Assembly (NCBI GenBank): GCA_037200925.1
Contig: JBBCGO010000001.1
Coordinates: 317,248 to 381,247, forward strand
DNA length: 64,000 nt
Direction of reading: 5' to 3'
Source of the DNA: Candidatus Doudnabacteria bacterium
Lineage (GTDB): Bacteria; Patescibacteriota; Doudnabacteria; UBA920; O2-02-FULL-48-8
Numbering within the stretch: position 1 is the stretch's first letter; every line of letters starts with the position of its first letter. Below the pieces are notes generated by a model. It had not been told where the DNA came from. It saw only the letters and a list, made by a program, of their open reading frames with translations, and searched no databases. The translations under genes were made by a program, and so were the position numbers. This document shows positions 1 to 20,747 of this stretch, piece by piece.

Positions 1-555
1 AGCGGCAACACGGACATTTTCAGACATTGAATCGAATCGCGGCATAAGCATGAATTCCTGAATATCTATATTGGTATCGCCGTGCTTGCCGCCATTGATG
101 ACATTGAACATCGGTTTGGGTATTTTCAATTGTTTTTTTTTATGCAAAAGGGCGACATATTTATAAACAGGAATTTTTTTAGCCAGTGATGCGGTTTTCG
201 CCGCAGCCCCCGATACTCCCAGAATCGCATTGGCGCCGAGTTTCTTTTTGCCGGACGTCCCATCAAGGCTGATCAAAGCCGCGTCCAGTAGAGACTGGTC
301 AAATACATTCATCCCGCGGATATTTTTGGCAATGATCGTATTCACATTCGCCACAGCTTTAGAAACCCCAAGACCGCCAAATTCCTTCCCGCCATCCCGC
401 AATTCCTGTGCTTCAGCCGTTCCGGTCGAAAGCCCCGACGGGACGCCAAACGTCCCTCTTGCAGTCCCTGCCTCAACTGTCACCTCAACTGTGGGATTGC
501 CGTTAGAATCAAGGATCTGCCGGGCAAGGATATTTTTTATCGGCGTATTAGGCAT
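1..555 (-). CDS. eno: enolase (phosphopyruvate hydratase); C-terminal part runs off the window edge
   Basis: Minus-strand translation from ATG 553-555 is open to position 1: MPNTPIKNILARQILDSNGNPTVEVTVEAGTARGTFGVPSGLSTGTAEAQELRDGGKEFGGLGVS...LGANAILGVS...FNVINGGKHGD. Classic enolase N-terminus. Missing from the ORF track because there is no stop in the window. Confidence 0.85.
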   Translation of the reverse strand, partial: MPNTPIKNILARQILDSNGNPTVEVTVEAGTARGTFGVPSGLSTGTAEAQELRDGGKEFGGLGVSKAVANVNTIIAKNIRGMNVFDQSLLDAALISLDGTSGKKKLGANAILGVSGAAAKTASLAKKIPVYKYVALLHKKKQLKIPKPMFNVINGGKHGDTNIDIQEFMLMPRFDSMSENVRVAA

Positions 556-1781
556 GATTTAGAGCCTTGATCGCCGGCAGTTGCTTGCCTGATAAAAATT
601 CCAGCATAGCCCCGCCGCCAGTGGAGACATGGTCCACGAATTGCGAAACTTTTGCCTGATCCACAACTTGGGCCGTCTCGCCGCCTCCGATCACTCCAAA
701 TGCGCGGCCTTTCGATCTTGAGGCAAAAATCAGGGCCAGGGCTTTGCTGCCATTGGCGTATCTTGGCTGTTCGATCAGGCCAAATGGCCCGTTCCAAACC
801 AAAGTTTTCGCCCCTTTGATAATACCGGCGAACTTGCGTATGCTTTTTGGCCCAATATCAAAAATGGATTCCTCAGGCCTGACCTTATCAATAGGTGTCA
901 CTCTGGCCCTTGCTTCCAAACTCGTGGCTACAACGATATCAACAGGCAAAACAATTTTATCTTTATAGTGCCTCAGCAGCTCGCGAGCAACTGCGATATC
1001 TGATGTTTTGGACTTACCCACTTCGTAGCCGTGAGCTTTCAGGAAAGTATTCGCCACTCCTCCGCCGACAATGATGTTGGATGCTTCTTTGGCCAGACTG
1101 TGGATCGTCCCGACCTTGTCTTCGATCTTGATCCCGCCGATCAGCATGACCAGCGGTTTCTGCGGATCCTTCATAACTTTTGAAAAAGACCGGATCTCTT
1201 TCATAAAAGAGAGCCCGGCGTAAGCCGGCAATTTTCTCGCCAAGCCGAAAGTCGAAGCTTCCCTCCGGTGAGCCATGGAAAAAGCTTCGTTGACAAAAAC
1301 ATCTCCAAAACCGGCCAGCAGGTCAATAAATCCTTCGCTATTGTCTTCTTCGCCTTTATAAAACCTCAGGTTTTCCAGAAATAAAATACTGCCTCCCGGC
1401 AGATCCCGGCTCATTTGGACGTAATCCGACTTCGTGATGTCTGCAGGCAGAAAATTGATATGCTGCACGGAATAATCAGGCAAGTGGTCTTTGATTTTTA
1501 CTACTTTTAAACCGAGTAATTCGCCAAGTTTTTCCGCGGCCGGCCAAAGACTTTTAGTATTTTTATGATGCCCGTCCGGCCGGTCGAGATGAGAGAGCAA
1601 AATAATTCTGGCTTTTTGCTTTATCAAATATTTCAAGGTCGGCAAAGCATCTTTGATCCGAGTATCATCCGCCACTTCCCATTGTTCGGTGTGGATATTT
1701 TTTTTTCAATGGCACATCAAATCCGGCGCGCAATATCACGCGCCGGTCTGTGACTTTGACGGATGAAATAGATTTTATCAT
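548..1781 (-). CDS. pgk: phosphoglycerate kinase, reading frame broken by +1 in a T9 homopolymer (1698-1706)
   Basis: Track ORF 548-1675 starts at ADDTRIKDALP..., which is mid-PGK. Upstream, in another frame, ATG at 1781 gives MIKSISSVKVTDRRVILRAGFDVPLKK, the PGK N-terminal motif. The two frames join if the A9/T9 run loses one base. The ATG overlaps the TGA of the upstream gene (ATGA). Confidence 0.8.
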
Positions 1782-2965
1782 TGAGTTTGCGATCCCGTCA
1801 CGATCACCCACCCGTTCGGCACGTCGCAGGGTGTGGGGAATTGTTTGACCTCTCCGGTCGCAGGATTCTTCGCAGTTGTAATTACTTGGATGCAGGCAAT
1901 CGGCTCATTGCTGATCGGCGATGTAAATCCAAAAGTGGAAAGGATCTGGCTTATTAGATCTTTTGTTCCTCCGGGTGCGCCAATCTCTAAATACTTATTT
2001 TGAACGGATATAGTGGCGGTTGGTATTCCCAAAACACTATCGTAGATCTTCGCACCGAGGCCATTGATCGCAGATTCAGCAACGTTGCTTTTCGACGCTA
2101 CCAATAATTGTTCTTCTGTGGTGAAAGCGGCTTGATTTGGAAAAATTTTCACATACAAAACATTGTTAGCAGTGGTTTGCGGAGGAGACTGCTGCTGTTT
2201 TATTGAGTTAAAGTTGATCCAGACAATCCCGGCTTTGTCGGTAGTTACGTCTCCTTCGCTCCAATCAACTGGGTATTTAAAGGCAATGCCGTATTTTGTA
2301 TTCGTATAAGTTTTCCAGGTGGAAGTATCTGCTGCCGCGCTTGGTTCAGTAAACTTGACATTAGAAACGATTTGGTCAAAATCTATATCAAACTTCGTAG
2401 GAGGTTTGGGGTAATTGATGTGAAATAGATCCGTTTTATTCAGCTGAACAATGACATGGAATTCGGATTGACCGGTTGAAGAATAATCCAATCGGATCGC
2501 CGGTTTTCCGCCGACAGTTATGTCTGTTTTTGGCAGTTGTTCAGGCGTAAGCTTAAAGGCAGCAAGCTGCTCTGTGTACCATTCATCCAACGGAAGGTTT
2601 TTTGGATTTCCGTTCGGCTCAACCTCAAACGTCACCAGCGAATTTGCCGCGGTTTGCGACGGTTCCAGGATGGAAATACTGTAAAACGTTCCTGTGCCCT
2701 CCAGCCCTACAAGCAATGTCGGCGGATATTTAAAACTAAACCCGTACTGAGAATTCGTATACGTTTTCCAGTCCGCTGTTGGGTCTTTGTGAACGACTGG
2801 TTGAGCCGGCGACGGGACGGAGATTGTTGATTGCCAATACCAGATGCCGGCTACAGCACATGCGCCTAAGACCAAAAGCGAAGCTATCACAGCAATGAAC
2901 TTTGGCGTGAAAGTTTTTTTAGGCGGCGAAATGTCCTGCTGTTGTTGTATTGGGGTTATTTCCAT
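1778..2965 (-). CDS. membrane-anchored secreted protein, YTN-motif family (two motif copies)
   Basis: N-terminal TM helix followed by YWQ, then DWKTYTNSQYGFSFKYP and a second TWKTYTNTKYGIAFKYPVDW. Paralog of 2985-4061, 6419-7402, 31110-31697 and 36021-36587. Confidence 0.6.
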   Translation of the reverse strand: MEITPIQQQQDISPPKKTFTPKFIAVIASLLVLGACAVAGIWYWQSTISVPSPAQPVVHKDPTADWKTYTNSQYGFSFKYPPTLLVGLEGTGTFYSISILEPSQTAANSLVTFEVEPNGNPKNLPLDEWYTEQLAAFKLTPEQLPKTDITVGGKPAIRLDYSSTGQSEFHVIVQLNKTDLFHINYPKPPTKFDIDFDQIVSNVKFTEPSAAADTSTWKTYTNTKYGIAFKYPVDWSEGDVTTDKAGIVWINFNSIKQQQSPPQTTANNVLYVKIFPNQAAFTTEEQLLVASKSNVAESAINGLGAKIYDSVLGIPTATISVQNKYLEIGAPGGTKDLISQILSTFGFTSPISNEPIACIQVITTAKNPATGEVKQFPTPCDVPNGWVIVTGSQTQ

Positions 2966-2984
2966 ATGGATGTGATGAATTTGA

Positions 2985-4061
2985 TCACTGCAGAAGTTTA
3001 AAATCCTTTATCCCTAAACCAAAAATATCTAAATAAACCGAGCATAAATAAGGCTCTTGGCTTTTAAAATTCGGGTCAATACAATCTGATCCGGGACTGG
3101 GAGGTTGTTGGATTTGTTTTTCAAATACATATTTACTATTCCTTCCCAACTCCTGGCCTTGATCGCAACCCGGTGTAGTTGCGCTTTGGCAAGCATCTTT
3201 CTTCCAACTGTTCAGAGGAGTAATAGCTATCCACCAAACAGCAAAATGGTCTGCTGTATCCTTTAACTTATGGTCGAGAGGTAATCCGAACATCAATATA
3301 GTTGTGTTAGGAAAAACTTGATCATCAGGACGAGGAGTTATTTCGTCGACCGTATATTTGGTCCAGCTATCAGGCATCGTCAGTTGAAATCCATATTTTG
3401 CGTTGGTATAAACTTTTGAGGTCAGAATAGTGCCAATGCTCGGAGTCGTAAACTTGAAAGTGGAAAGGATTTGGGTAAGAACCGGACTTAAATCCGTATC
3501 GCTTGGGTAAAGCTCTATTGTGTAGAATTTATTTTTGTACGGTGTATCCAAAAAAAGAGATTTGTGTTCAGCTCCTAGTCCTGTCGCGTCACGATGCGTA
3601 TTCCAATCGATTCCACCAATAGACATAGTGGGTCCGGCACCTTGAAAATTCTTAATCCCCGAATCTTCAGTCAAGCTTGAGGAAAATTCCGCATATGAAA
3701 AATCATTGTCGGATACTGTCTTAGTTACTTGTACTGTACTAAATTTTGTCAGTGGATTAGGATCGGCATTGCTTTCATCTGAAAGATTCCAGTCATTTGG
3801 ATACTTAAACTCAAACCCATACTGAGCATTCGTATAAGTTTGCCAGGTTGCCGTTGGATCGACCTTCACTTTATGCACCGGCAGATCGACTATGGCCGGG
3901 ATCTGCCTGACTGTCTGCCAATAATAAAGGCCCGCGACAATGGCAGCTAAAATCGCAAACAGAAAAACAAAACCCAAAATCATATGCCGGCTGAACCAAT
4001 TTTTCTTTACATCCGGATGGAAATTGAAATTAGGTTCATTTGATTGATTTTGCGGTTCCAT
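2985..4061 (-). CDS. membrane-anchored secreted protein, YTN-motif family
   Basis: TM helix then YYWQ, then TWQTYTNAQYGFEFKYPNDW; a second degenerate copy is KVYTNAKYGFQLTMPDSW. Confidence 0.6.
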   Translation of the reverse strand: MEPQNQSNEPNFNFHPDVKKNWFSRHMILGFVFLFAILAAIVAGLYYWQTVRQIPAIVDLPVHKVKVDPTATWQTYTNAQYGFEFKYPNDWNLSDESNADPNPLTKFSTVQVTKTVSDNDFSYAEFSSSLTEDSGIKNFQGAGPTMSIGGIDWNTHRDATGLGAEHKSLFLDTPYKNKFYTIELYPSDTDLSPVLTQILSTFKFTTPSIGTILTSKVYTNAKYGFQLTMPDSWTKYTVDEITPRPDDQVFPNTTILMFGLPLDHKLKDTADHFAVWWIAITPLNSWKKDACQSATTPGCDQGQELGRNSKYVFEKQIQQPPSPGSDCIDPNFKSQEPYLCSVYLDIFGLGIKDFKLLQ

Positions 4062-4065
4062 ATAT

Positions 4066-5128
<1,063 letters not shown>

Positions 5129-5263
5129 TTATTTCAATAATTGCAGCAGAAAAGCGACGATGAACAGCGCCCAAACGAGAAAAATGATAAATTCAATATT
5201 ATCTTCAAACAGAAAATAGCGATGAAGATGCTGGTCCAATGTTTTTCTTGTTTTTTTTGCCAT
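5129..5263 (-). CDS. hypothetical small membrane protein (44 aa)
   Basis: MAKKTRKTLDQHLHRYFLFEDNIEFIIFLVWALFIVAFLLQLLK, between gap and fba; not in the ORF track (below its size cutoff). Confidence 0.25.
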   Translation of the reverse strand: MAKKTRKTLDQHLHRYFLFEDNIEFIIFLVWALFIVAFLLQLLK

Positions 5264-5322
5264 ACGTTTTGATTAATTTTTTTAATTATTTTATTTAAGA
5301 TTTATTCCTCAAAGCAGTGATA

Positions 5323-6189
5323 TTACTGTATTCCGTTAAAAAGTTTCAACCTCCCTTCTACCACTTTTTCTATTGCATCTACGGCAGGTTGTAAAATTTT
5401 ATATGGAGCGATTTCGTCAGGATGTTCGGCTAAAGATTTTTTAAGCGCCTCGTCGTAGGCCACACGTATTTCAGTATTAATGTGGATAATTGAAATGCCC
5501 GCCTTGATCGCATTTGTAAAATCCACATCACGCAATCCTGAACCACCGTGCAATACGAGAGGCACGCCCGTTGCTTTTTTTATTTCTCCCACACGCTCTT
5601 CATTTATATGAGGTTTGCCGCTTTTTATGAGGCCATGGATGCTGCCGACAGATGGTGCGAGCATATCTGTGCCGGTCATTTCCACAAATTTCTTAGCATC
5701 TTCGGGTTTCGTCAGGATCCCGGCGCCTTCCGGTATGGTATCTTTTATATTTGACCCTGAACCGATAAACCCCAGCTCTGCTTCTACTAAAATATCTCTG
5801 CCGGTTTCCTGAATCACACTCTTGGCATATTCTACGGTTTGTTTTGTGATCTTTACATTTTCTTCGAAACTCAAATTTGCCAGATCTATGATCACGGCAT
5901 CGAAGCCCGCGTCAATCGCACTCTTTGCACGCTCAAAAGAATAATGATGATCAGCATTCAGGAAAATAGGGTAATTATCTTTCGCTCTAATCTGATTGAT
6001 CATCCCAACTGCTTCGTTCTTGCCGACAAAATCTTCCTCGCCTTCGGAGAGCCCGATAATGACGGGCACTGCCAGTTTTTTTGCAGCATTATAGATCCCG
6101 TGGAATCCTTCCAAATTTGAAATATTAAAATGTCCGATAGCAACGCCTTTTTCCTCGGCTTCTTTCACATATTCTCGCAATGTTTTCAT
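5323..6189 (-). CDS. fba: class II fructose-bisphosphate aldolase
   Basis: GHFNISNLEGF, PVIIGLSEGE, LNADHH and VLHGGSG motifs of class II FBA/tagatose-bisphosphate aldolases. Confidence 0.8.
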   Translation of the reverse strand: MKTLREYVKEAEEKGVAIGHFNISNLEGFHGIYNAAKKLAVPVIIGLSEGEEDFVGKNEAVGMINQIRAKDNYPIFLNADHHYSFERAKSAIDAGFDAVIIDLANLSFEENVKITKQTVEYAKSVIQETGRDILVEAELGFIGSGSNIKDTIPEGAGILTKPEDAKKFVEMTGTDMLAPSVGSIHGLIKSGKPHINEERVGEIKKATGVPLVLHGGSGLRDVDFTNAIKAGISIIHINTEIRVAYDEALKKSLAEHPDEIAPYKILQPAVDAIEKVVEGRLKLFNGIQ

Positions 6190-6196
6190 AAAAGAG

Positions 6197-6409
6197 TTAA
6201 AACCTTATACCTGCTTTAAGAATATCCCACAATCCCGGCAATGTGGCTTTATTATTTGTGGCCTGGCACAAAGCATAGACCACCTGATATTGGCAATTCC
6301 AGCCTTTGGATTCTATCAGCAGGCTTGTGACTCCGCGCCAATACAGGAACAGGACCACCACGATCGCCAGCAAAATAAGTTTTACTCTCATTTTTTTCTT
6401 CAGGTACAT
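6197..6409 (-). CDS. hypothetical small membrane protein
   Basis: 70-aa ORF with one TM helix; no recognisable domain. Confidence 0.3.
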   Translation of the reverse strand: MYLKKKMRVKLILLAIVVVLFLYWRGVTSLLIESKGWNCQYQVVYALCQATNNKATLPGLWDILKAGIRF

Positions 6410-6418
6410 ATTAATGAT

Positions 6419-7402
6419 TTATCGGATGCCGGTATCGATATTGAAATCCGAAGTTGTAGTCTGGCCGGATTTGATAGTGACTGTGCCGACTGTCATACTG
6501 AGCTGGTCAACTCGCATTCCGCTGGCCTTCAGGGTGTATGTGCCTGCGGGCAGGGAAAATTTGTAATTTCCGTTTCCATCAAGGTGCTGGCTTGCGACCA
6601 AGCCGTTATTGCCAAAAACACCGACTTGTCGCGCCATATTCATCTCTGGCGTAGCCTGGCACGGATGGCCCGCTTGCTCCACGGGACAGATCGGCCCGAT
6701 CGTCACATGTCCCAAAAGCGTTCCCATTGACGAGGTTGATGAATTTGGATCACTAAATTTAAAAGTCTTTAGCATTTCATCCAATCGTTTCCAAACAGCA
6801 TTCGCATCAACTTCCGCCACTGCCCCGGGGGTGTAGTTGCCGATGTTGGCAATTCCGATGGTCTGACTGACTTCCATACAATCTTGGCCATGAAAAACCC
6901 GGTAAATTCTGGTTTGATAGTTCGTCCCGGCCGCTCCTTGGTTTTCATCGGATTCATGGAATATCACACCGTTAACTTCATACGTCTTAGCCGCGGCAAT
7001 GCAGTTTGATTCTGAACTTTGCGGCTGGACTGCAACCGTCAGATTGGCCGAACCAAAATTAGTTTTCGGATAAAGGCTTTGCGGGAGCACCGCGCTGATC
7101 AAGCTTTTGGCCGCATGTTTGAAGAAATTTGCCTGGTTGCCGGACGTATCAAGATCATAATTTTTATCATAATTAAACTGGAAACCATATTCGGTGTTCG
7201 TGTAAGTTCCGGTTTTCGGCGCCAGATGCATTGGCTGCATAAAATCTCCCGGGATCGGCTGGTAAGCCATTTGCCAATAATAGATCAGGCTGACTGCGGC
7301 TGCGAAAGCCAGTAAAACAAATAGAATTCCTAAAAATCTGAATTTCATTTGTTCATCTTCTTTTTGTGAAGCTTTGTGAATTTTATTTTTGGGGTTTGCC
7401 AT
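6419..7402 (-). CDS. membrane-anchored secreted protein, YTN-motif family, with C-terminal beta-sandwich-like tail
   Basis: TM helix, then YYWQ, then GTYTNTEYGFQFNYDKNY. C-terminus GTYTLKASGMRVDQLSMTVGTVTIKSGQTTTSDFNI resembles a carboxypeptidase-regulatory/Ig-like fold. Confidence 0.55.
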   Translation of the reverse strand: MANPKNKIHKASQKEDEQMKFRFLGILFVLLAFAAAVSLIYYWQMAYQPIPGDFMQPMHLAPKTGTYTNTEYGFQFNYDKNYDLDTSGNQANFFKHAAKSLISAVLPQSLYPKTNFGSANLTVAVQPQSSESNCIAAAKTYEVNGVIFHESDENQGAAGTNYQTRIYRVFHGQDCMEVSQTIGIANIGNYTPGAVAEVDANAVWKRLDEMLKTFKFSDPNSSTSSMGTLLGHVTIGPICPVEQAGHPCQATPEMNMARQVGVFGNNGLVASQHLDGNGNYKFSLPAGTYTLKASGMRVDQLSMTVGTVTIKSGQTTTSDFNIDTGIR

Positions 7403-8504: not shown

Positions 8505-8511
8505 GACTAGG

Positions 8512-10937: not shown

Positions 10938-12452
10938 TTATTTACCGGTCAAACCCGTCTTTTCGCCCGGAATAGCATTCGCATCCGGTTTGGCAGTTGG
11001 CTGTTCGGCAATCAACTGGGCCGGCGATATAGGCGGAGGCGGGTTTATTTTTTGGTCGTTCAGCTGTTCAAATCGCTTCTCGTCCCGATTCAACCGCTTA
11101 TATAGAACGAAAATCACTATTGAAGCAAAAATAATGATTATAAAAACAATAATTGCCACAGCGGTGGTTTTGCCATGACCTTTGATGCTTGCGGCCAGCT
11201 GATCAAACTTGGTGTCAATCGATTTTTTAGCAGCGATCATTTGTTGGCAATCAGCAACATACGGATCAATATACTTTACCAAAGAAAAATCCGGATTGAT
11301 GTTATCTTTTGCCTGGTCAAATTCAGAAATCGCGCTCCTGCAATGGCTGGCCTGCATTAGTGCCAGCCCACGGACGATGTGATCAAAATAATCCGAATTC
11401 CCGTTCAATAAATTACTGGCCTGCAAAAAATCCTTGGGTATCTGGATCGGAATTGCAAAGGCAAAATTATCCCCTTGGCTATTGGTGCTGGTGTCGGATT
11501 CGTAAGTTACCACCCCGATCGCTTCCCCGGATGCGTTAAACAGCGGTCCGCCGCTCGATCCGGGCGAAATTTTGGCGTCGGTCTGGATAAGCTGGAAGTC
11601 CTTGTTAACGGAATCCTTAAATGCGCCTATTGAGCCTTGGGTGAATGTCGATTCGCTCAAATTCGTACCGTTAGCGTCAGCACTGGCCGGGAAGCCAAAA
11701 ATATAAATCTTATTGCCTGCATTCAGACCGGCAGAATTGCCGAGTTTGATCACCGGAAGCTTGCCTTTGGGATCGATCTTTATTTCGCCCACGTCCTTTC
11801 CGTCAAATTCAAAATTAGAGTTGGCGCTCACAAGAGTGGCGACAGAACCGTCCTTCACCGAATCGGAAAGAGTATTTTTTATTGACGAAGGATTGAGCAC
11901 GGTCAGTTCATTTTTCAGATTCGCAGTATTGTGAGCCAGAATATATTTTAGTAGATTCTGGTAAATTTCAAGACCCTTTGCCCCCGCATTATCCTGGGTA
12001 TAACCGAAGCTTTCCAATTGTGCATCTGAAAATTGGGAAAATTTTTCGGCCAAAACCAAATAAGCCAGGCTTTGGGCCTTGGTCACCAGATCGGCATTAT
12101 CCGAAACGACATGAGCATTGGAAAGGATATAACCGTCCGGACTGACCACAAAACCTGTCCCCAGCAGATCATCATCCACATTGACCTTCAGAGGCAGGCC
12201 GTGGTCATCAAAAATATCGCCGGTTTTGAGGTCAAAATCAAACGAATCAAAAGAAACATCTCCGGAAATATGGTGCACGATCCGGACAACTCCCGGCTTG
12301 ACCAGATTCACCAGATCTTCCTGGCTTAAATTCGCGGGCGGAATATCGGAACTGTAAATTATTTTCTGTGAATTTAAATAAACATAAACACCGGCGGCAG
12401 CCAGCATCAAAATCGCCGCGAAAACGCCCAAGCCCAAGAGGATTTTTTTCAT
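10938..12452 (-). CDS. trypsin-like serine protease (S1/HtrA-like) with N- and C-terminal TM segments
   Basis: GTGFVVSPDGYILSNAHVV (His) and GSSGGPLFNASGEAIGVV (Ser). C-terminal hydrophobic stretch VAIIVFIIIIFASIVIFVLY. Confidence 0.7.
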   Translation of the reverse strand: MKKILLGLGVFAAILMLAAAGVYVYLNSQKIIYSSDIPPANLSQEDLVNLVKPGVVRIVHHISGDVSFDSFDFDLKTGDIFDDHGLPLKVNVDDDLLGTGFVVSPDGYILSNAHVVSDNADLVTKAQSLAYLVLAEKFSQFSDAQLESFGYTQDNAGAKGLEIYQNLLKYILAHNTANLKNELTVLNPSSIKNTLSDSVKDGSVATLVSANSNFEFDGKDVGEIKIDPKGKLPVIKLGNSAGLNAGNKIYIFGFPASADANGTNLSESTFTQGSIGAFKDSVNKDFQLIQTDAKISPGSSGGPLFNASGEAIGVVTYESDTSTNSQGDNFAFAIPIQIPKDFLQASNLLNGNSDYFDHIVRGLALMQASHCRSAISEFDQAKDNINPDFSLVKYIDPYVADCQQMIAAKKSIDTKFDQLAASIKGHGKTTAVAIIVFIIIIFASIVIFVLYKRLNRDEKRFEQLNDQKINPPPPISPAQLIAEQPTAKPDANAIPGEKTGLTGK

Positions 12453-13423
12453 TTTTTTCTTTTTAGGACTTTTTTGACTGCATTAATGATCGCTTTGCTG
12501 TCCATTCCCCATTTAGCGATCAGTTCGTTCTGTTCCCCGCTTTCGCCGAAGTGGTCAGGCATGCCCACGAACTCCTGAGGCACGGGAAAATTGCGCCCCA
12601 AAACTTCGGCCACAGCTCCGCCCACTCCGCCTGTGATCTGGTGCTCTTCGGCAGAAACAGCGCAGCCGGTTTTTTTCACGGATGCTGTAATGGTTTGCTC
12701 GTCGATCGGTTTGACCGAAGCAACATTTATAACCTCGCACTCAATCCCTTCTTTTGCAAGCTCATTGGCCGCGGCAAGAGCGTAATAGACCTGCGGACCG
12801 GCCGCGGCGATCGTGCAGTCCTTGCCTTCGCGGAAAACCTGCGCTTTGCCAATTTCAAACGGCGTTTCTTCTACTGTAAATTGAGGGGTTTTTTCGCGGC
12901 CCAGCCGGATATAAACCGGGCCATTGATCTTAGCCGAGGCCAAAGTGGCTTTACGCGCTTCAATTGCATCGCATGGGACTAGAACTGTCATGCGCGGCAA
13001 TACCCGCGTGATGGCAATATCTTCCATTGCTTGGTGCGTCGCGCCATCAGGCCCAACCGATATCCCGGCGTGCGAGCCCACGATTTTCACATTGTTGCCG
13101 CCATAGCAGATAGAGACTCTGATCTGATCCCAATTCCTGCCCGGAGAAAAAGTCGCGTATGAAGTGATGAACGGGATCTTTCCTTCATGCGCAAACCCGG
13201 CCCCTAAGCCGGCTAAATTTTGTTCGGCCACGCCGACTTCCACAAATCTTTCGGGGAAAGCATCGGCAAATGCCTGCGACCGGGTTGATTCGGTCAGATC
13301 GCAGCAAAGCACAACCACATCCGGATTTTCCTTGCCTAAGATCATCAAGCCCTCGCCATATCCATTGCGGATCGGGACTTGCTTCATATCGGACGCATAT
13401 AAATTATCGACTAATTTGATCAT
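12449..13423 (-). CDS. transketolase, C-terminal (pyrimidine-binding) subunit
   Basis: CCDLTESTRSQAFADAFPERFVEVGVAEQNLAGLGAGFA and FITSYATFSPGRNWDQIR. Confidence 0.85.
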   Translation of the reverse strand: MIKLVDNLYASDMKQVPIRNGYGEGLMILGKENPDVVVLCCDLTESTRSQAFADAFPERFVEVGVAEQNLAGLGAGFAHEGKIPFITSYATFSPGRNWDQIRVSICYGGNNVKIVGSHAGISVGPDGATHQAMEDIAITRVLPRMTVLVPCDAIEARKATLASAKINGPVYIRLGREKTPQFTVEETPFEIGKAQVFREGKDCTIAAAGPQVYYALAAANELAKEGIECEVINVASVKPIDEQTITASVKKTGCAVSAEEHQITGGVGGAVAEVLGRNFPVPQEFVGMPDHFGESGEQNELIAKWGMDSKAIINAVKKVLKRKK

Positions 13424-13683
13424 GGGTTATATAATTTTCCGAGGTCTTTTATCACCTTGCCGATCCCGAATCTTTCGATCTCTTTTTTTACGCCGGCCTT
13501 ATCAAAAGGGGTCAGATCCGGATTAAGTTCAACTAATTCCAAGATCAGTCCTGCGGCTCTGTCTTCCAATTCTCCGGTTGGCAGCCCGGCATTATCAACT
13601 TTGACTAGATCCGAAGTCACGCTGGCCAAATCGGAACTTAACTTCTGGAGTGGATTCAAATTTTCACTTCCCGGATCATTCAT
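13420..13683 (-). CDS. hypothetical protein (87 aa), translationally coupled to the tkt C-subunit
   Basis: Stop overlaps the tkt C-subunit start (ATGA). No recognisable domain. Confidence 0.4.
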   Translation of the reverse strand: MNDPGSENLNPLQKLSSDLASVTSDLVKVDNAGLPTGELEDRAAGLILELVELNPDLTPFDKAGVKKEIERFGIGKVIKDLGKLYNP

Positions 13684-13698
13684 GTAAATAATCGGTAA

Positions 13699-14088
13699 TC
13701 AATCCAATTTTTTAGTATTCAACCGGCGATTCTCATCTTCAACTTTTTTATCAATATCTTCTTGAACGACACTTTTCAATTCACTTAGGGACATAGGCTC
13801 AGTCGTAAGGTTTTTTGGATGCAGTTTATATGTCAGAGCTTCGGCTTTGTCCGCAAGCATTTTATCCTCTTCACTAATCGGCCAACCGGGGTTTGCAAAA
13901 ATCATCTCAGTTTTAAGGGCTTTATATTCGGCCAAACGTTTTTCAGCCAAAGATTCATCTTGGCTTGCAGCCGCCTGCGCCAACGCATCTATCTTTTCGC
14001 TCAACATGCCTATCAGCTGACGATGTTTTTCTTGAAAAGTATCTGATTCTCTTGCTCCCAAATAATTGGGTTCTTTATTCATATTCAT
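13699..14088 (-). CDS. hypothetical coiled-coil protein (129 aa)
   Basis: Helical, charged sequence; no recognisable domain. Confidence 0.4.
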   Translation of the reverse strand: MNMNKEPNYLGARESDTFQEKHRQLIGMLSEKIDALAQAAASQDESLAEKRLAEYKALKTEMIFANPGWPISEEDKMLADKAEALTYKLHPKNLTTEPMSLSELKSVVQEDIDKKVEDENRRLNTKKLD

Positions 14089-14093
14089 GTGAT

Positions 14094-14252
14094 TTAATAA
14101 CAGATCATGCGTCCGCCCAGAGGTCTGCAGCCCCCGATCGGAGGGTTATAATTACTTTTTTTAGGTTCATATTTCCAAAGAAGAACACCAGAAAAAATTA
14201 GAGAAGCTAACAATAATAAAGCTAAAACGATGATAATAATATTTTTATTCAT
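14094..14252 (-). CDS. hypothetical small membrane protein (52 aa)
   Basis: MNKNIIIIVLALLLLASLIFSGVLLWKYEPKK...; its start lies inside the direct-repeat copy at 14245-14267. Confidence 0.25.
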   Translation of the reverse strand: MNKNIIIIVLALLLLASLIFSGVLLWKYEPKKSNYNPPIGGCRPLGGRMICY

Positions 14253-14274
14253 GCTCGCTCGCAAAATAGGTTCA

Positions 14275-14517
14275 TTAATTAAGTTTATTCTTGATCTCCT
14301 GCCCTGATTTTAGGTCAAAATCTTTCAAAAATTCAGGATCAGACTTTAGAATCTCTGCAGCAATTTCTTTGGCCAAACGTTCCATTTTTTCCGCATCAAC
14401 TCCATTCCTGTCTTCTCGAAGAGATGCTTCCTTTTTTTTGATATCTACATACTGTTCTTTGAGGTCTGCTAATCTGCTGTATGGCTCATATTCATACAGA
14501 TTCATTTCTCTGTCCAT
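14275..14517 (-). CDS. hypothetical acidic coiled-coil protein (80 aa)
   Basis: Flanked by approximately 23-bp direct repeats that copy the 3' end of the tkt N-subunit gene. Confidence 0.4.
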   Translation of the reverse strand: MDREMNLYEYEPYSRLADLKEQYVDIKKKEASLREDRNGVDAEKMERLAKEIAAEILKSDPEFLKDFDLKSGQEIKNKLN

Positions 14518-14540
14518 ATTATTGCCTCAGCGAGATTGAT

Positions 14541-15419
14541 TTACTCATGTTCGCTCGCAATCTTCCCTCCCAGAGTTCTTAATTCTTTCAATGCGATCGC
14601 GGCCTGCTGGTCCTTAGGAGGCGATCCGGACGGCTCAATCGTGCCCGGCGGATTGCCATGCCATTCAAAGCGGTATTCCATATAATCCACGCCTTTGCCC
14701 GGGATCGTATGGCAGATTATCACAGTCGGTTTTTCGGCAATTGCCTTGGCCTGATTGCAGGCATCGATTATTTCTTGCATATTGTGTCCGTCAATTTCCA
14801 GAACATGCCAGCCGAATGCTTTCCATTTATCAATGAAAGGTTCCAGCGGCATGATGTCTTCCGTGTAGCCGTCGATCTGAATGTTATTCCGGTCAATAAT
14901 TCCGGTCAGATTCCGCAGTTTATTTTTTCCCGCGAACATCGCCGCTTCCCAGATCTGGCCTTCTTCCTGCTCACCGTCGCTCATGACGCAATACACGCGC
15001 CAAGGTTCTTTTTTCATTTTCAAACCCGCATAGGCCATGCCCGCGGCTTGCGAAAGCCCTTGGCCTAAGGGGCCGGAAGTATTTTCAGCTCCTGGCAAAC
15101 CTTCGTGATGAGGGTGTCCCTGCAGTCTGGTTCCCAATTTGCGTAAGGTTGCCAGTTCAGCCATTGGGATAAATCCGGCTTCTGCCAAAGCTGCATACCA
15201 CACGGGGCAAATGTGTCCGCATGATAAAACAAATCTGTCGCGGGTGGGAAGTTCAGGATTTTTCGGATCAACGTTCAAGATCCCGCCAAAATATAGCGCT
15301 GTAAATACATCGGCCATGCCCAAAGGCCCGGCCGAGTGGCCCGATTTGGCAGCGACTAGCATTTTAATAATATCTTGTCGGATATCGTTTGCTTTTTGTT
15401 CGAGTTCTTTGATAGTCAT
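14541..15419 (-). CDS. transketolase, N-terminal (TPP-binding) subunit
   Basis: SGHSAGPLGMADVFTALYFGGILNVDPKNP, RFVLSCGHICPVWYAALAEAGF. Confidence 0.85.
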   Translation of the reverse strand: MTIKELEQKANDIRQDIIKMLVAAKSGHSAGPLGMADVFTALYFGGILNVDPKNPELPTRDRFVLSCGHICPVWYAALAEAGFIPMAELATLRKLGTRLQGHPHHEGLPGAENTSGPLGQGLSQAAGMAYAGLKMKKEPWRVYCVMSDGEQEEGQIWEAAMFAGKNKLRNLTGIIDRNNIQIDGYTEDIMPLEPFIDKWKAFGWHVLEIDGHNMQEIIDACNQAKAIAEKPTVIICHTIPGKGVDYMEYRFEWHGNPPGTIEPSGSPPKDQQAAIALKELRTLGGKIASEHE

Positions 15420-16075
15420 TAACTTTCAATATCTACTTTAAGCGCTTCAATTGCCAATTCTTCGTCTTCTGAGCGCAAGATCGCCGACCCGGCTACCAAG
15501 ATGTCAGCGCCTGCCTTGGCACACTGCCGGGCAATGCCGACTTTCACGCCTCCATCCACGCAAATTGTGACACTTTTGCTTAAGCTTCGCAATTCAACGA
15601 TCTTTGCGATTGTGGAAACCATAAACGGTCGGCCCTGAAAACCCGGCTGGATACCCATAAGCTGGATAATATCAACTTCCTTCAAAAATTTTCCGGCCAG
15701 ATGAAGCGGTGTTGCGGGGTTTATCACTAGTCCTGGCTTTAGTCCCAGACTTTTTGCCCTCTCGATCACCGGCTGGATCTCTGAATCATGGTTAAACGCT
15801 TCCAGATGGAATAAAACCCATTTGAATCCCGCATTTTTTGCATCCTCAAAATATATTTCCGGGGTCAGCGTCATAAAATGCGCCATCAGAAGAAACGGCG
15901 AGGATTTTAAAAAACCCAGATCAGCGGGCATCACGGTCTTATTGTGAATGAACTTGTCGTCAATGAAATCAATATGCAACTTAGTAAAATATTGGCTCAA
16001 CGCAAAAAGCCGCCCGTACCTTAAGCGGAAATCCGAGATATCATTGGTCAGAATTGCCGGAGAAATTTCGGTCAC
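15419..16075 (-). CDS. rpe: ribulose-phosphate 3-epimerase
   Basis: (beta/alpha)8 RPE with MGIQPGFQGRPF and GADILVAGSAI. Confidence 0.8.
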   Translation of the reverse strand: MTEISPAILTNDISDFRLRYGRLFALSQYFTKLHIDFIDDKFIHNKTVMPADLGFLKSSPFLLMAHFMTLTPEIYFEDAKNAGFKWVLFHLEAFNHDSEIQPVIERAKSLGLKPGLVINPATPLHLAGKFLKEVDIIQLMGIQPGFQGRPFMVSTIAKIVELRSLSKSVTICVDGGVKVGIARQCAKAGADILVAGSAILRSEDEELAIEALKVDIES

Positions 16076-16521
16076 AGATTTATATCTATTTTTTTTACTT
16101 TATTCACCCGCCTGTTAAATCGTTCTTCGTCGGCAAATGGAGTCGTCAAAAAAGTATGCACGATCTTTTTCGCCTCATCCAGGGTCGTGTAATCGGCTGC
16201 CAGACAAAGGATATTGGCGTCATCATCATTGCGCGCGGCGTGTGCGGTTTTTTCATTCCAAGCCAGAGCCGCTCTCGCCCCTTTGGCTTTGTTCGCCACA
16301 ATGCACTCGCCTTGCCCTGACCTGCAAACCAAGATCCCGAACGAATCCAGTTCCGAACCGACTCTGACCCCGACCGGCCAAGCAAAATCCGGATAATCAT
16401 CTTCTGAATCAAATTTTTTTGCTCCCAGATCCTCAAAATCAATACCCCACTCTTTGAGCCAGTTTTTTATCTCTTCCTTCAATTTATACCCGCCGTGATC
16501 AGCGCCTAAGTATACTTTCAT
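16072..16521 (-). CDS. rpiB: ribose-5-phosphate isomerase B
   Basis: MKVYLGADHGGYKLKEEI...ILVCRSGQGECIVANK. Confidence 0.85.
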   Translation of the reverse strand: MKVYLGADHGGYKLKEEIKNWLKEWGIDFEDLGAKKFDSEDDYPDFAWPVGVRVGSELDSFGILVCRSGQGECIVANKAKGARAALAWNEKTAHAARNDDDANILCLAADYTTLDEAKKIVHTFLTTPFADEERFNRRVNKVKKIDINL

Positions 16522-17295
16522 ATTCGATGTATTGCTTCCCTGTTAAATTCTTTAATTACCTGCCAAAAATTCTCCGTATCCAGGCTGGCTGCGCCGACCA
16601 GTGCGCCGTCAATGATCGGATATTTGGCATACTCCTGAACGTTATTCTTGTTCACCGTCCCGCCGTATAAAACCCTCAGATTTCTGGCGGCCTTGCCGAT
16701 CCGATGCTCCAAAAGCTGAAAAATATGTTCTATCAGCTCACTGGCATGCTCACCTGTTGCAGGTTCGGATCTTTTCATGGTCGAAATAGCCCAGATTGGT
16801 TCATAAACGTAAACGATCTTCTCCAATTGCTTCTTGTCCAGGTCCTTTGTAACTTCCGCAAACTGTCTGGTAACCAGATTTTTCATTTCCGTCTTGACCG
16901 CGCCCTCTTCCCCGCCCAAACAGACAATAGGCGTGATCTTATGTTTTAGAGCGGCGATGATCTTGGCATTCACAACTGAGTCAGTCTCGCCTAGAGATAA
17001 TCTTCTTTCTGAATGGCCCAAAATAACGTATTTAACATTCCATTGCAAAAGCTGGACAGGCGAAATCTCGCCGGTCAGCGCCCCCCCCGTCCGCCCAGCT
17101 CATATTTTGCGCGCCCAACTGCACGCCGTCCGTATAATGCATGAGCGCCGGCAAATAAACGAACGGCGGACAGACCACGACCTCGGTATGAGCCGCGATC
17201 GATCGGCTGTGATGTTCAATGGCGGCTGCCAAGCGCTTTGCTTCGTCCACAGCCTGAGGATTCATTTTCCAGTTTGCGACAATAAGTTTTTTCAT
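16518..17295 (-). CDS. tpiA: triosephosphate isomerase, frame broken by +1 in a C8 run (17081-17088)
   Basis: Track ORFs 17032-17295 (MKKLIVANWKMN...NMSWADGGGADRR) and 16518-17048 ([15 protein letters not shown]...) are two halves of TIM. Removing one G from the minus-strand G8 restores [33 protein letters not shown]. Confidence 0.85.
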
Positions 17296-18287
17296 TAGGG
17301 CTGTCTGTAAAGGTCGGCCGCCGCTTCCGGCATCACGGTATTCACATAAACGTCAGAACCCAATTCAAACCCACCCCAGACATTCAGGCGCGGCATGATC
17401 TCCAGGTGCCAATGGTAGCTGCGCACGTCATACTGCGTCCGCGGCGAATGCGATACGGGCAGGGTGTGGATGTAATAATTGTAAGCCGGATCAAAAAGTT
17501 TATAATAGATCTTTTGCAAAACGATTTTGAGCACGCGCGTCAAGGAGCTGCGCTGACTGTCGGTCATTTCAAAAAAATTCGCCTGGTGGGTTTTCGGAAG
17601 GATCCGCAGGGCATATGGAACTCTGGCCGCAAAAGGAGAAAGCACCAAAAAATCCTCGTCATCCAAAACCAATCTTGTCGGCTCGGATAATTCTTTAAGG
17701 ATCAACTCGCAAAAAATACAGGCGCCTGTTGCCATAAAAAAATGATGGCTGCTTAAGACCTCGTCATGCAGATGCTCCGGGACGAACGGCGTGGCAAAGA
17801 TCTGAGAATGGGGATGAATGACTGACGCACCGCCCTCATGTCCGTGATTTTGCAGGATATGGACATACTGGACCTCAGGATGATCAGACAGCGTAAGCAT
17901 CCGGCTCTGGTAGACTTCAAGGCATAAATTCAAAAGTTTGTCAGGCAAAAAACCCGTCAGGACATTGTGCGGCCTGGTGATGATGACCTCATGATCCCCG
18001 ATCCCTTCGCGTACGCGATAAAAATCGTGCCGTTCGCGGCCGCCAAAATGGCCTAATGCTTCAAACTTATTGGGTATTACGCGGACTTGCCAATTTTTTC
18101 CGACCGGCCGTGATAAAATTTCCTGATTCAAATTTTCCTGCCCGGGACAAAACGGGCAAGTTTTGTCGTGCTCAGGTAAAGTTGCCGGAAAAGCCGGAGG
18201 ATGCTTAAAATCCTCAGGGCGCGTGGACCTGTTCGGCGCAAAAAGCACCCAGTGTTTGGAGACTATGTCTTGTCGGAACTCACTCAA
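17295..18287 (-). CDS. GalT-family nucleotidyltransferase (galactose-1-phosphate uridylyltransferase-like)
   Basis: CPFCPGQE zinc motif and HPHSQIF (HxHxQ) active site. Confidence 0.65.
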   Translation of the reverse strand: MSEFRQDIVSKHWVLFAPNRSTRPEDFKHPPAFPATLPEHDKTCPFCPGQENLNQEILSRPVGKNWQVRVIPNKFEALGHFGGRERHDFYRVREGIGDHEVIITRPHNVLTGFLPDKLLNLCLEVYQSRMLTLSDHPEVQYVHILQNHGHEGGASVIHPHSQIFATPFVPEHLHDEVLSSHHFFMATGACIFCELILKELSEPTRLVLDDEDFLVLSPFAARVPYALRILPKTHQANFFEMTDSQRSSLTRVLKIVLQKIYYKLFDPAYNYYIHTLPVSHSPRTQYDVRSYHWHLEIMPRLNVWGGFELGSDVYVNTVMPEAAADLYRQP

Positions 18288-18801
18288 AATGGAATGTTAA
18301 TTGTAACTGCCGGACAAAGGCATCCGTGCCGCGGATAACGTACAATTTATTTCCGTGCAAAGCCAAAATTACCGTTTCTGAATGACCCATGCCTAGATCA
18401 TTGGCGATTTTCTGCGCCGGCATATCGTCAAGCTGAGTGCTGACCTCGCTCGAAATTTTCAGGGTTTTGCGGATGGCTTTTTCTGAATCAGGGCTGGTGA
18501 CCTCGACAGTAACCCCCTCATCCGAATTAGTGCTCGGCACAAAAGTGATCGCGGAATTACTATCAGCTTCAATGGACCAATCCGCAGGGTAACGCACGTC
18601 AAAGCCCAGACGGGAATCTTTGTAGTTGTGCCACGGATAAAATGTATTTTCCGCAACCTGGGCTTCAAAACTTACATCCGTAACTTTGATATATCCGACC
18701 AGTGCGACCGTGACGATCACGGCGTAGGCGATCGTCCATATCAGCCATCGATTAGGATGGATTACAATTTTATGTATTTTGCTTAATTTCGTTTTGGCCA
18801 T
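18280..18801 (-). CDS. membrane-anchored secreted protein, distant YTN-family member
   Basis: TM helix then YPWHNYKDSRLGFDVRYPADW. Confidence 0.5.
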   Translation of the reverse strand: MAKTKLSKIHKIVIHPNRWLIWTIAYAVIVTVALVGYIKVTDVSFEAQVAENTFYPWHNYKDSRLGFDVRYPADWSIEADSNSAITFVPSTNSDEGVTVEVTSPDSEKAIRKTLKISSEVSTQLDDMPAQKIANDLGMGHSETVILALHGNKLYVIRGTDAFVRQLQLTFHFE

Positions 18802-18835
18802 GCAATCTTATTTTGTCCTATGTTGATTGTTCGTA

Positions 18836-19012
18836 TTAGTGCTGTGCGGTACCGTCAAAAAAGAATTTGAGACCCCATCTGTGTCCAGCTCTAGCTTTGC
18901 GATTGAAATCTGCGCCAATAGTCCCCGCACCTACAATAATCGCAAACACGACTGCCCAAACAAAATACCGCTGCGCGACCAATTGATCAACCCACGTTTT
19001 TCTTTTTGCCAT
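18836..19012 (-). CDS. hypothetical small membrane protein (58 aa)
   Basis: MAKRKTWVDQLVAQRYFVWAVVFAIIVGAGTIG...; preferred over the protein-unlike plus ORF 18827-19108. Confidence 0.3.
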   Translation of the reverse strand: MAKRKTWVDQLVAQRYFVWAVVFAIIVGAGTIGADFNRKARAGHRWGLKFFFDGTAQH

Positions 19013-19073
19013 CTTTTTCCCTTGCCCGCCGTAGCTTTATGCGTAGGCGGATTAATTTTTTTATTAATTTTAA

Positions 19074-19478
19074 TTATTTTTTTGTGTCCAGGTATTGCTG
19101 CAGCATGATCTGTGCTGCGATATTGTCTTTTATGGCCCGTTGCTGGCGTACCCTCATCCCCTGATCCTTTAACAGCTTTCCCGCCTGAACTGAACTAAAC
19201 CGTTCGTCAACCAGTTTGATCGGAACTTTCACGGACCGGAATAAATTATCCGCAAATATTTTGAGTTTTTCAGCTGATTTGCCCTCCTTCCCGGAAAGAT
19301 CCGTTGGCAGGCCGAGTAAAATTAACCCGATTTCCTGCTCTTGGATTATTCTTTTTATTTCTAGAACGGCTTTTTTGCTTTCAAAAGGCTGTTTTAAGGG
19401 AAATGCGATTTTCGTGGCACTGTCGGCTATGGCAGCTCCTACCCGGACCGAGCCCCAATCCAGGGCCAGTATGCGCAT
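19074..19478 (-). CDS. ruvX: Holliday junction resolvase-like protein RuvX/YqgF
   Basis: MRILALDWGSVRVGAAIAD... RNase H-like fold. Confidence 0.8.
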   Translation of the reverse strand: MRILALDWGSVRVGAAIADSATKIAFPLKQPFESKKAVLEIKRIIQEQEIGLILLGLPTDLSGKEGKSAEKLKIFADNLFRSVKVPIKLVDERFSSVQAGKLLKDQGMRVRQQRAIKDNIAAQIMLQQYLDTKK

Positions 19479-20747
19479 TATTTGCTTTCACCCAAAGTTA
19501 CGGTAACATCTTTGGTCTTGCCCCCGCTTAGCACGGACATTTTGACGATATCGCCCGGATTAAAGTCTTTCAGATACGAGGCCAGGCTATGATCCTGATC
19601 GATGGTGTGCCCGTTGATCTGTAAAATAATGTCATTCTCTTTAAGTCCGGCCTTATCAGCCGCAGACCCGGCCACAACTGCCGGAGCTGATGAAGCATCG
19701 CCGGAAACGATCAAGGCCCCATGATCAACGCTTAAATTATTTTCCTGCTGGATGCTCTGATTGACCAAAACGTAGCGCACACCGAGGAAAGGCTTGACGA
19801 TTCGTCCGAATTTTTTGAAGCTGTCTATATCCTTCTTAATGTCATTGACCGGGATTGCAAATCCGATGAGCTGTCCTTGGGAATCAATGGCGGTATTGAT
19901 GCCGATGACAGAGCCGCCGATATCCAGAAGCGGACCGCCGGAGTTGCCGGGATTGATGGCAGCATCTGTCTGGATGACTCCTTCAAGCTGCTCAGAATCA
20001 GAGCTGCCGGTCGTATCTCCGGCCGTGATCGTCCGGCCGATGCCGGACACTATCCCTTTGGTCACTGTGTTGCTGTACTGGCCCAGAGAATTTCCGATCG
20101 CCACGACTGTCTGGCCGATCTGCAGATTCGAAGAATCTCCCAATGCCAAGGTCGGTAAGTTGGAGGCGGTGATCTTTACCAAAGCCAGGTCATTGACCGG
20201 GTCCCGGGACAAAACGGTGGCGTCATATTTTTTGCCGTCATTTGTCAAAACGGTGTACGTTGCGGTTGTATCGTCGACCACGTGCTTATTGGTCATGATC
20301 AGCCCGTCGGAAGAGATAATGAACCCGGACCCGCCGCCGACCTGCTGAATATTCGGCGTAGCGCTGTTATTTTGCTGATTCTGACTGCGGTTCTGGAAAA
20401 AAGGGTCAAACGAAAACGGCCCGAAATCATAGGGCGAAGTCGAGTATCCCGGGATCTTATTCAGGTCTTTGGAAATAATGATGGAAACCACTGCCGGACT
20501 GGAGTTTTTCACGACATCCACAATTCCCGACTGCTCGTTAACTGAAACTGTCTTAATGTCAGCGCCGGTGCTGCTAACACCCAAAGATATGCCGTGCGTG
20601 AGTAAGAAAGGTCGTACCAAACACGGCACCCGCTATGCCAAACAGGAAACTCAGCAAAACAACCAGAGAAACCAGCTTAAAATTGGACTTATCCGCGTTT
20701 TCCCGCAGATCCTCGGTGAGATTTTTTTCGTTATGTAAATTTGTCAT
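19478..20747 (-). CDS. HtrA/DegP-family serine protease with PDZ domain; N-terminal TM segment in a different frame (+1 at CCC 20580-20582)
   Basis: GGGSGFIISSDGLIMTNKHVV, GNSGGPL and a C-terminal PDZ domain. Upstream ATG 20747 encodes MTNLHNEK...FKLVSLVVLLSFLFGIAGAVFGTTFL (TM anchor). It joins the main frame if one G of GGG is removed. Confidence 0.75.

What the first reader, a model, noticed from the sequence alone, without database searches (positions are those of the whole stretch)
548..20747. Four housekeeping genes (pgk, gap, tpiA, htrA-like) each carry a +1 insertion in a homopolymer
pgk has T9 at 1698-1706 where T8 is needed. gap has CCC at 4998-5000 where CC is needed. tpiA has C8 at 17081-17088 where C7 is needed. 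The htrA-like gene has CCC at 20580-20582 where CC is needed. In each case the corrected reading restores textbook conserved motifs: the PGK N-terminal fold, [36 protein letters not shown], and the protease TM anchor. All four are one-base insertions at homopolymers, and three are glycolytic enzymes. The simplest explanation is systematic homopolymer error in the assembly, and more such errors are likely elsewhere. The alternative is genuine inactivation of lower glycolysis and a protease in a symbiont.
Basis: seen in the sequence. Interest (0 to 1): 0.5.

Follow-up and report, generated by a model that had tools for sequence, protein, structure and literature searches.

The report
Sequencing-error frameshifts in housekeeping genes
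The four broken housekeeping genes are real in the deposited sequence, but they are almost certainly one-base consensus errors of a low-coverage (about 8x), unpolished PacBio HiFi metagenome assembly, not a loss of glycolysis in this tiny bacterium.

Summary
All four frameshifts exist. Pfam shows pgk, gap and tpiA split into consecutive pieces of one profile.

The window is the reverse complement of JBBCBH010000057.1. This is a 964,444-bp Candidatus Doudnabacteria contig from a hifiasm-meta co-assembly of PacBio HiFi deadwood metagenomes, with 8.35x coverage and no polishing step described.

A second assembly of one of the same HiFi runs (Logan, SRR28211699) overlaps about 46 kb of the window. 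It shows 0 substitutions and 5 one-base indels.
- gap and htrA are intact in Logan, so the window is wrong there.
- ruvX and the uppP C-terminus are broken only in Logan, so Logan is wrong there.
- One further indel (43910) is undecided.

The pgk T9 and tpiA C8 runs are shared by both HiFi assemblies. A third, short-contig assembly (GCA_015689235.1) encodes exactly the predicted repaired TIM (258 aa). No third source exists for pgk.

Verdict: an ordinary assembly artefact. A residual chance of roughly 10-15% remains that the pgk and/or tpiA tract lengths are real. Interest is low.

The parts
548..1781 (-). pgk (phosphoglycerate kinase). The frame is broken by a T9 run at 1698-1706 (A9 in the sense strand) where A8 keeps the frame.
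   Evidence: The repaired protein (410 aa) aligns over its full length with Doudnabacteria PGKs. The T9 run is shared by the Logan contig. No third source was found.
4066..5125 (-). gap (type I GAPDH). The frame is broken by CCC at 4998-5000 where CC is needed.
   Evidence: The Logan contig of SRR28211699 lacks one base here and encodes an intact 352-aa GAPDH, identical to the predicted repair (P0121).
16518..17295 (-). tpiA (triosephosphate isomerase). The frame is broken by a C8 run at 17081-17088 (G8 in the sense strand) where G7 is needed.
   Evidence: The C8 run is shared by the Logan contig. GCA_015689235.1 carries a 258-aa TIM identical to the predicted repair (P0122).
19478..20747 (-). 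htrA-like membrane-anchored serine protease (Trypsin_2 plus PDZ). The frame is broken by an extra base, located at 20595 by comparison (window CGCACGG against CGCCGG), not at a homopolymer.
Evidence: The Logan contig encodes an intact 422-aa protein (P0127).
43906..43910 (+). Additional candidate indel: G5 in the window against G4 in the Logan contig. It lies in a small hypothetical plus-strand ORF that is 131 aa in Logan and ends early at 43922 in the window.
   Evidence: There is no homology evidence to decide which version is right.
19074..19478 (-). ruvX control. The gene is intact in the window (134 aa, full RuvX profile). It is broken in the Logan contig by a missing C opposite window 19293.
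   Evidence: The same 134-aa RuvX is also in GCA_015689235.1. This shows the sister assembly carries indel errors of its own.
53124..53894 (-). uppP/bacA control. The window has the canonical C-terminus and a full BacA profile. The Logan contig has one extra base (C5 against C4) opposite window 53175, which scrambles the last 17 residues.

Best explanation
The frameshifts are one-base consensus errors in the deposited assembly.

The contig comes from PacBio HiFi reads of a deadwood metagenome. The organism, a Candidatus Doudnabacteria MAG, had only about 8x coverage. The reads were assembled with hifiasm-meta, and no polishing step is described.

HiFi reads err mainly by miscounting bases in runs. 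At low depth such errors survive read correction and enter the contig. Gene callers then split pgk, gap, tpiA and the htrA-like protease into fragments.

Shown: two of the four breaks (gap, htrA) are absent from another assembly of the same reads, and the repaired tpiA product exists verbatim in a third assembly.

Inferred: the pgk A9 run, and the shared tpiA G8 run, are recurrent read errors at the two frame-breaking long runs of the region.

Biologically, the organism most likely has an intact lower glycolysis and an intact protease.
For: **Source**
- Window = JBBCBH010000057.1 (964,444 bp) of GCA_037975565.1, reverse complement; record coordinate = 165171 minus window coordinate.
- PMC11613949: JBBCBH is the hifiasm-meta r058 co-assembly of HiFi reads SRR28211698-701, with mean read length 18.3 kb.
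- Its Table S8 lists this single-contig MAG (3_UBA920) at coverage 8.35, present only in Sample57.

**Second assembly of one of those runs (Logan SRR28211699)**
- Logan uses k=31 and discards k-mers seen only once (PMC12424806).
- About 46 kb of overlap with the window shows 0 substitutions and 5 one-base indels.
- At 4998 and 20595 the Logan version restores full-length GAPDH (352 aa) and HtrA (422 aa).
- At 19293 and 53175 the Logan version breaks ruvX and the uppP C-terminus, which are intact in the window.
- Both assemblies therefore carry indel errors at similar rates. The Logan errors were each seen in at least 2 reads, so recurrent indel errors do occur in this read set.

**tpiA**
- The exact repaired 258-aa protein is on a 2,679-bp contig of GCA_015689235.1, next to an identical RpiB.

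**No sign of decay**
- After removing one base, each gene reads through with no other stop or indel.
- Family motifs and full Pfam profile coverage are restored.
- More than 100 relatives have single full-length ORFs.

**Known error mode**
- Homopolymer-length misestimation is the primary HiFi error mode (PMC7545148).
Against: - **Shared runs.** The pgk A9 and tpiA G8 runs are the same in both HiFi-based assemblies. Logan keeps only k-mers seen at least twice, so each run has at least two reads behind it, and probably the better-covered path. Purely random errors would rarely do that.
- **No independent pgk.** No independent sequence of pgk from this organism was found.
- **Unverified third assembly.** I could not confirm that GCA_015689235.1 is an Illumina assembly or comes from the same sample. 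Its tpiA could belong to a sister population.
- **Clustering.** The four breaks cluster in the first 21 kb of the window.
- **No reads.** No reads could be inspected.
Confidence: 0.85

Rival explanations
1. pgk and/or tpiA really carry a +1 frameshift in the Sample57 population. These would be young pseudogenes, meaning loss of lower glycolysis in a host-dependent CPR bacterium. gap and htrA would still be assembly errors.
For: Both HiFi-based assemblies agree on A9 and G8, so each is supported by at least 2 reads. CPR bacteria have reduced metabolism (general knowledge).
Against: - The repaired TIM exists verbatim in another assembly.
- gap, eno, fba, the split transketolase genes (N- and C-terminal subunits), rpe and rpiB are intact around them.
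- There is no second disabling mutation or other sign of decay in either gene.
- The same read set demonstrably yields recurrent indel errors that break ruvX and uppP.
- The two sites are exactly the frame-breaking long runs, which is what a sequencing artefact predicts.
Confidence: 0.08
2. The A8/A9 and G7/G8 tracts are truly length-variable in the population. This could be slipped-strand mutation, as in contingency loci. Alternatively the frameshifted alleles are partly rescued by transcriptional slippage on the long A or G run, as described for poly(A) tracts in insect endosymbionts.
For: The A9 run lies in the sense strand. An intact tpiA allele and a G8 allele are both on record for organisms with identical TIM, RpiB and RuvX proteins. 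The endosymbiont precedent is recalled from my own knowledge and was not tested here.
Against: - No read-level or transcript data are available.
- Relatives do not conserve the tract. L001 reads AAG CAG AAT at the pgk site.
- Indel disagreement between assemblies also occurs at short runs and at a non-run site, which points to technical noise.
Confidence: 0.05
3. Programmed ribosomal frameshifting is used to express these genes.
For: None beyond the presence of runs of identical bases at three of the sites.
Against: - All close and distant orthologues retrieved are single ORFs.
- gap and htrA are unbroken in the sister assembly.
- A +1 insertion would need a -1 shift at four unrelated sequences.
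- No stimulatory element was looked for or is expected.
Confidence: 0.01

Closest known systems
Homopolymer and indel consensus errors of long-read (PacBio HiFi) assemblies at low coverage
   Same: - Only one-base indels, and no substitutions, separate two assemblies of the same reads.
- Most indels fall in runs of identical bases.
- Each indel breaks an otherwise perfect conserved ORF in one assembly only.
- Coverage is about 8x and no polishing step is described.
   Different: - One of the four (htrA, 20595) is not in a run.
- The two long-run cases are reproduced by both assemblers, so they are recurrent rather than single-read errors.
Pseudogenes of reduced symbiont genomes (for example Mycobacterium leprae, Sodalis, young endosymbionts)
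   Same: Frameshifted housekeeping genes in a small-genome, probably host-dependent bacterium.
   Different: - There is no accumulation of further lesions.
- Neighbouring pathway genes are intact.
- Two of the four lesions vanish in another assembly, and one repaired product is found verbatim elsewhere.
Poly(A)-tract frameshifts rescued by transcriptional slippage in Buchnera and Blochmannia (recalled from my own knowledge, not tested)
   Same: An A9 run in the sense strand of an essential gene, with the frame off by one.
   Different: There is no evidence that the A9 is real. The tract is not conserved in relatives. No RNA data exist for a sample containing this organism.

Membership tests
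Sequencing or assembly indel artefact | The lesion is not reproduced in an independent assembly or data set of the same organism. | tested here: met
   - gap and htrA are intact in Logan SRR28211699_494.
- tpiA is intact as an exact 258-aa product in GCA_015689235.1.
- pgk has no third source, so this feature is not met for pgk.
Sequencing or assembly indel artefact | The source technology and depth make such errors expected. | tested here: met
   PacBio HiFi reads, hifiasm-meta, no polishing step described, coverage 8.35x. Homopolymer-length misestimation is the main HiFi error mode.
Sequencing or assembly indel artefact | Differences between assemblies are indels only, and both assemblies are affected. 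| tested here: met
   0 substitutions and 5 one-base indels in about 46 kb. Two or three are wrong in the window and two are wrong in Logan.
Sequencing or assembly indel artefact | Read pile-ups show the correct run length in accurate reads. | not testable with these tools
   No read access. The relevant runs are SRR28211699 (HiFi) and SRR10968259 (Illumina, sample 57).
Genuine pseudogene | The lesion is reproducible in independent data, and there are further signs of decay (extra stops or indels, relaxed constraint). | tested here: not met
The lesions are absent elsewhere for three of the four genes.
Programmed frameshift or slippage site | The frameshift and slippery site are conserved in orthologues. 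| tested here: not met
   Orthologues are single ORFs. L001 has no A-run at the pgk site.
Phase-variable homopolymer (contingency) locus | Tract-length polymorphism within the population in accurate reads. | not testable with these tools
   Assemblies alone cannot separate read error from true heterogeneity.

The most novel reading that the evidence does not exclude
The pgk A9 and tpiA G8 runs are the true genomic state of the Sample57 Doudnabacteria population, since each is supported by at least two HiFi reads in two assemblers. Under this reading these central glycolytic genes are either freshly inactivated, or are kept partly functional by transcriptional slippage or tract-length switching. 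That would be the first such case in a CPR bacterium.
Probability: 0.07. Interest if true: 0.55.

Novelty: not a real feature. Interest (0 to 1): 0.08.

Why it matters
**Practical consequence.** This public, 'nearly finished', single-contig CPR genome carries roughly one frame-breaking indel per 10-15 kb.
- NCBI lists truncated proteins from it: PGK 375 aa, GAPDH 307 aa, TIM 87 aa plus a C-terminal fragment, and HtrA 368 aa.
- Metabolic reconstructions from the record would wrongly suggest a broken lower glycolysis.
- Low-coverage HiFi MAGs need short-read polishing, or frameshift-aware annotation, before pathway loss is inferred.

**Biological consequence.** There is no new biology unless read-level data show that the pgk or tpiA runs are real.

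Tried and rejected
- **Census of further frameshifts in the window.**
  - Methods: Pfam on 40 ORFs, a six-frame reading of the ribosomal-protein operon and a codon-usage frame-switch scan.
  - The scan recovers the known sites and finds no other convincing break. The ribosomal proteins, EF-Tu, EF-G, SecY, LeuRS, MetRS, SHMT and others all read as complete.
- **JGI metagenome contigs.** A protein-based search and a DNA pattern across the pgk run allowing A8 or A9 both found nothing.
- **GTDB representative genomes.** The closest pgk is only 73% identical (L001), so this collection holds no same-species sequence. It did confirm the repaired N-terminus.
- **Protein database searches for pgk.** Searches with the repaired PGK, both full length and the first 150 aa, and an exact look-up found no full-length or partial PGK from an independent assembly of this organism.
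- **Failed look-ups.**
  - The two PsbP-like neighbours of pgk and gap returned 'not on record' although the genes exist.
  - The truncated GAPDH P0006 also returned 'not on record'.
- **Identity of GCA_015689235.1.**
  - I tried to show that it is the Illumina MEGAHIT co-assembly of 25 deadwood samples from the same forest (PMC8333335). The accession appears in neither the paper nor its supplements.
  - The link therefore remains an inference from the short contigs and the very large file.
- **'Three of four hits are glycolytic, so it is biology' — rejected.**
  - About 40% of the first 21 kb is a glycolysis and pentose-phosphate gene cluster.
  - gap is demonstrably an assembly error.
Full report
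**Observation.** All four genes lie on the minus strand, and each is interrupted by a one-base frame change.
- pgk has T9 at 1698-1706 (A9 in the sense strand).
  - Removing one base joins 26 N-terminal codons to the 375-aa ORF.
  - The joined protein reads MIKSISSVKVTDRRVILRAGFDVPLKKNIHTEQWEVADD.
  - This aligns residue for residue with Doudnabacteria PGKs.
  - The long ORF alone begins at position 24 of the 379-position Pfam PGK profile.
- gap has CCC at 4998-5000. Its two pieces cover Gp_dh_N profile positions 1-39 and 40-100.
- tpiA has C8 at 17081-17088. Its two pieces cover TIM profile positions 1-68 and 67-244.
- The htrA-like protease (Trypsin_2 plus PDZ) is separated from a 57-aa ORF that carries its membrane anchor.

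The breaks are real features of the deposited sequence.

**Census of the rest of the window.** I used Pfam scans of 30 further ORFs, a six-frame reading of the ribosomal-protein operon and a codon-usage frame-switch scan.
- The frame-switch scan recovers the known sites and shows no other convincing break in a recognisable gene.
- About 18 runs of A/T of 8 or more, or G/C of 7 or more, occur in the window.
- Most of those that lie inside genes are in frame. An example is the T9 run (A9 in the sense strand) at 133-141 in enolase.

**Where the sequence comes from.**
- Exact-protein look-ups place the window on JBBCBH010000057.1 of GCA_037975565.1, a 964,444-bp contig. The window is its reverse complement, and record coordinate = 165171 minus window coordinate.
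- NCBI labels its proteins Candidatus Doudnabacteria and lists the fragments as separate proteins.
[quoted passage not shown] Mean read length was 18.3 kb.
- No polishing step is described in the parts of the paper I read.
- Its Table S8 lists this contig as the single-contig MAG '3_UBA920' (Doudnabacteria; UBA920). Coverage is 8.35, and it was detected only in Sample57.
[quoted passage not shown] 2019).

**A second assembly of the same reads.** The Logan project assembled run SRR28211699 on its own. It uses k=31, discards k-mers seen only once, and simplifies the graph with Minia3 (PMC12424806).
- Six loci from five Logan contigs (L015/L018, L020, L022, L024, L025) overlap about 46 kb of the window.
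- They show no substitution at all and five one-base indels.

| Window position | Difference | Consequence | Which assembly is wrong |
|---|---|---|---|
| 4998 | window has an extra G/C | Logan encodes an intact 352-aa GAPDH, identical to the predicted repair (P0121) | window |
| 20595 | window has an extra A (CGCACGG against CGCCGG) | Logan encodes an intact 422-aa protease (P0127) | window |
| 19293 | Logan lacks a C | ruvX is cut to 82 aa in Logan; the window's 134-aa RuvX matches the whole Pfam profile and recurs in a third assembly | Logan |
| 53175 | Logan has C5 against C4 | the canonical UppP/BacA C-terminus kept by the window is scrambled in Logan | Logan |
| 43910 | window has G5 against G4 | a small hypothetical plus-strand ORF differs in length | undecided |

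- Two assemblies of one read set disagree only by indels, and each breaks good genes that the other keeps whole. That is the signature of technical noise.
- Every Logan k-mer was seen at least twice. The Logan-specific errors therefore show that the same indel error can recur in several HiFi reads of this data set.

**The two shared breaks.** The pgk A9 and tpiA G8 runs are identical in both HiFi-based assemblies.
- For tpiA there is a third source.
  - A 2,679-bp contig of GCA_015689235.1 carries a 258-aa TIM next to an identical RpiB.
  - An exact-sequence look-up shows that this TIM (P0122) is letter for letter my G7 repair.
  - That assembly has short contigs and a very large file. This fits the Illumina MEGAHIT co-assembly of 25 deadwood samples from the same forest (PMC8333335).
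  - I could not verify the link.
- For pgk no independent sequence was found.
  - Neither the full repaired protein nor its first 150 residues retrieves anything from the same organism except the truncated 375-aa form.
  - The GTDB representatives and the JGI metagenomes hold no same-species DNA.
- The nearest relative, L001 (73% identity), reads CTG AAG CAG AAT at the site. It has an uninterrupted ORF and no A-run.

**Interpretation.** The best explanation is residual one-base consensus error in a low-coverage HiFi assembly, with confidence about 0.85.
- This is shown for gap and htrA.
- It is strongly indicated for tpiA.
- It is inferred for pgk.

The main counter-argument is that A9 and G8 each have at least two supporting reads and were chosen by both assemblers. 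A real allele or a strongly recurrent read error is therefore needed. The recurrent Logan errors at ruvX and uppP show that the latter happens in these data.

The apparent targeting of glycolysis is not meaningful, for three reasons.
- About 40% of the first 21 kb is a glycolysis and pentose-phosphate cluster: eno, pgk, gap, fba, a pfkB-family kinase, the two transketolase subunit genes, rpe, rpiB and tpiA.
- gap is demonstrably intact.

The four sites span 18.9 kb, close to the mean read length. That would fit a stretch of locally thin coverage or a poorly corrected read in the tiling path, but this is speculation.

**Rivals.**
- Real, young pseudogenes of pgk and/or tpiA: about 0.08.
- True tract-length heterogeneity, or rescue by slippage: about 0.05.
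- Programmed frameshifting: about 0.01, and effectively excluded by the intact orthologues and sister assemblies.

None of the genes shows a second lesion or any loss of conservation after repair.

**Comparison with what is known, and verdict.** This is a textbook case of long-read indel artefacts splitting genes.
- It is not a member of the pseudogene or recoding classes. Their defining features are reproducibility, further decay, or conservation of the shift in orthologues. These were tested and not met for three of the four genes.
- Novelty: not a real biological feature.
- Interest is low. The value is practical: the public record and its protein entries understate this organism's metabolism, and the contig should be polished with the matching Illumina reads.

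The decisive test is a read pile-up at five record positions: 163465-163473, 160171-160173, 148083-148090, 144576 and 121261-121265.

Noticed in passing
window 30636-32340 and 34247-34840 (minus strand): The S10 ribosomal-protein operon is interrupted by non-ribosomal genes. A GDPD (glycerophosphodiester phosphodiesterase) gene sits between rplC and rplD. Three predicted lipoprotein genes (213 aa, 195 aa and a 151-aa DUF5818 protein, all with an AAACN lipobox-like signal) sit between rplB and rpsS.
   Followed up: no
window 43906-43910 (plus-strand ORF about 43610-44005): A further one-base disagreement with the Logan contig (G5 against G4) changes the end of a small hypothetical protein: 131 aa in Logan, truncated in the window. 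No gene is listed here in the gene table returned for the NCBI record. Which version is right is unknown.
   Followed up: partly
window 56460-56468 and 59919-59926: A T9 run and a T8 run lie within the last 10 or so codons of the Sua5/YrdC-like and TatD-like genes. A length error there would only change the C-terminal tail and could not be detected by homology.
   Followed up: no
window 21558-22801 (minus strand): Two adenylate-kinase paralogues lie in tandem after secY, each covering the full ADK profile. An 80-aa ORF of unknown function sits between secY and the first one.
   Followed up: no
window 12449-15419 (minus strand): Transketolase is encoded as separate N-terminal (14541-15419) and C-terminal (12449-13423) subunit genes. 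They are separated by about 1.1 kb holding four small ORFs without Pfam matches. Two of these (13420-13683 and 13699-14088) lie in the same frame, with one stop between them.
   Followed up: no
window 1778-4061, 6419-7402, 18280-18801, 31699-32340, 36021-36587 (minus strand): There are many paralogous secreted or lipoprotein genes. Most give Pfam PsbP_2 or PsbP matches, several of them weak. In the copies read they share a motif such as W(K/Q)TYTN.(Q/K)YGF.F.YP. They are scattered through housekeeping operons.
   Followed up: no
L015 and L018 (Logan SRR28211699_494), L025: The Logan k-mer assembly of the same HiFi run carries its own frame-breaking indels, in ruvX opposite window 19293 and in the uppP C-terminus opposite window 53175. 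Proteins taken from Logan contigs of HiFi runs can therefore also be truncated.
   Followed up: yes
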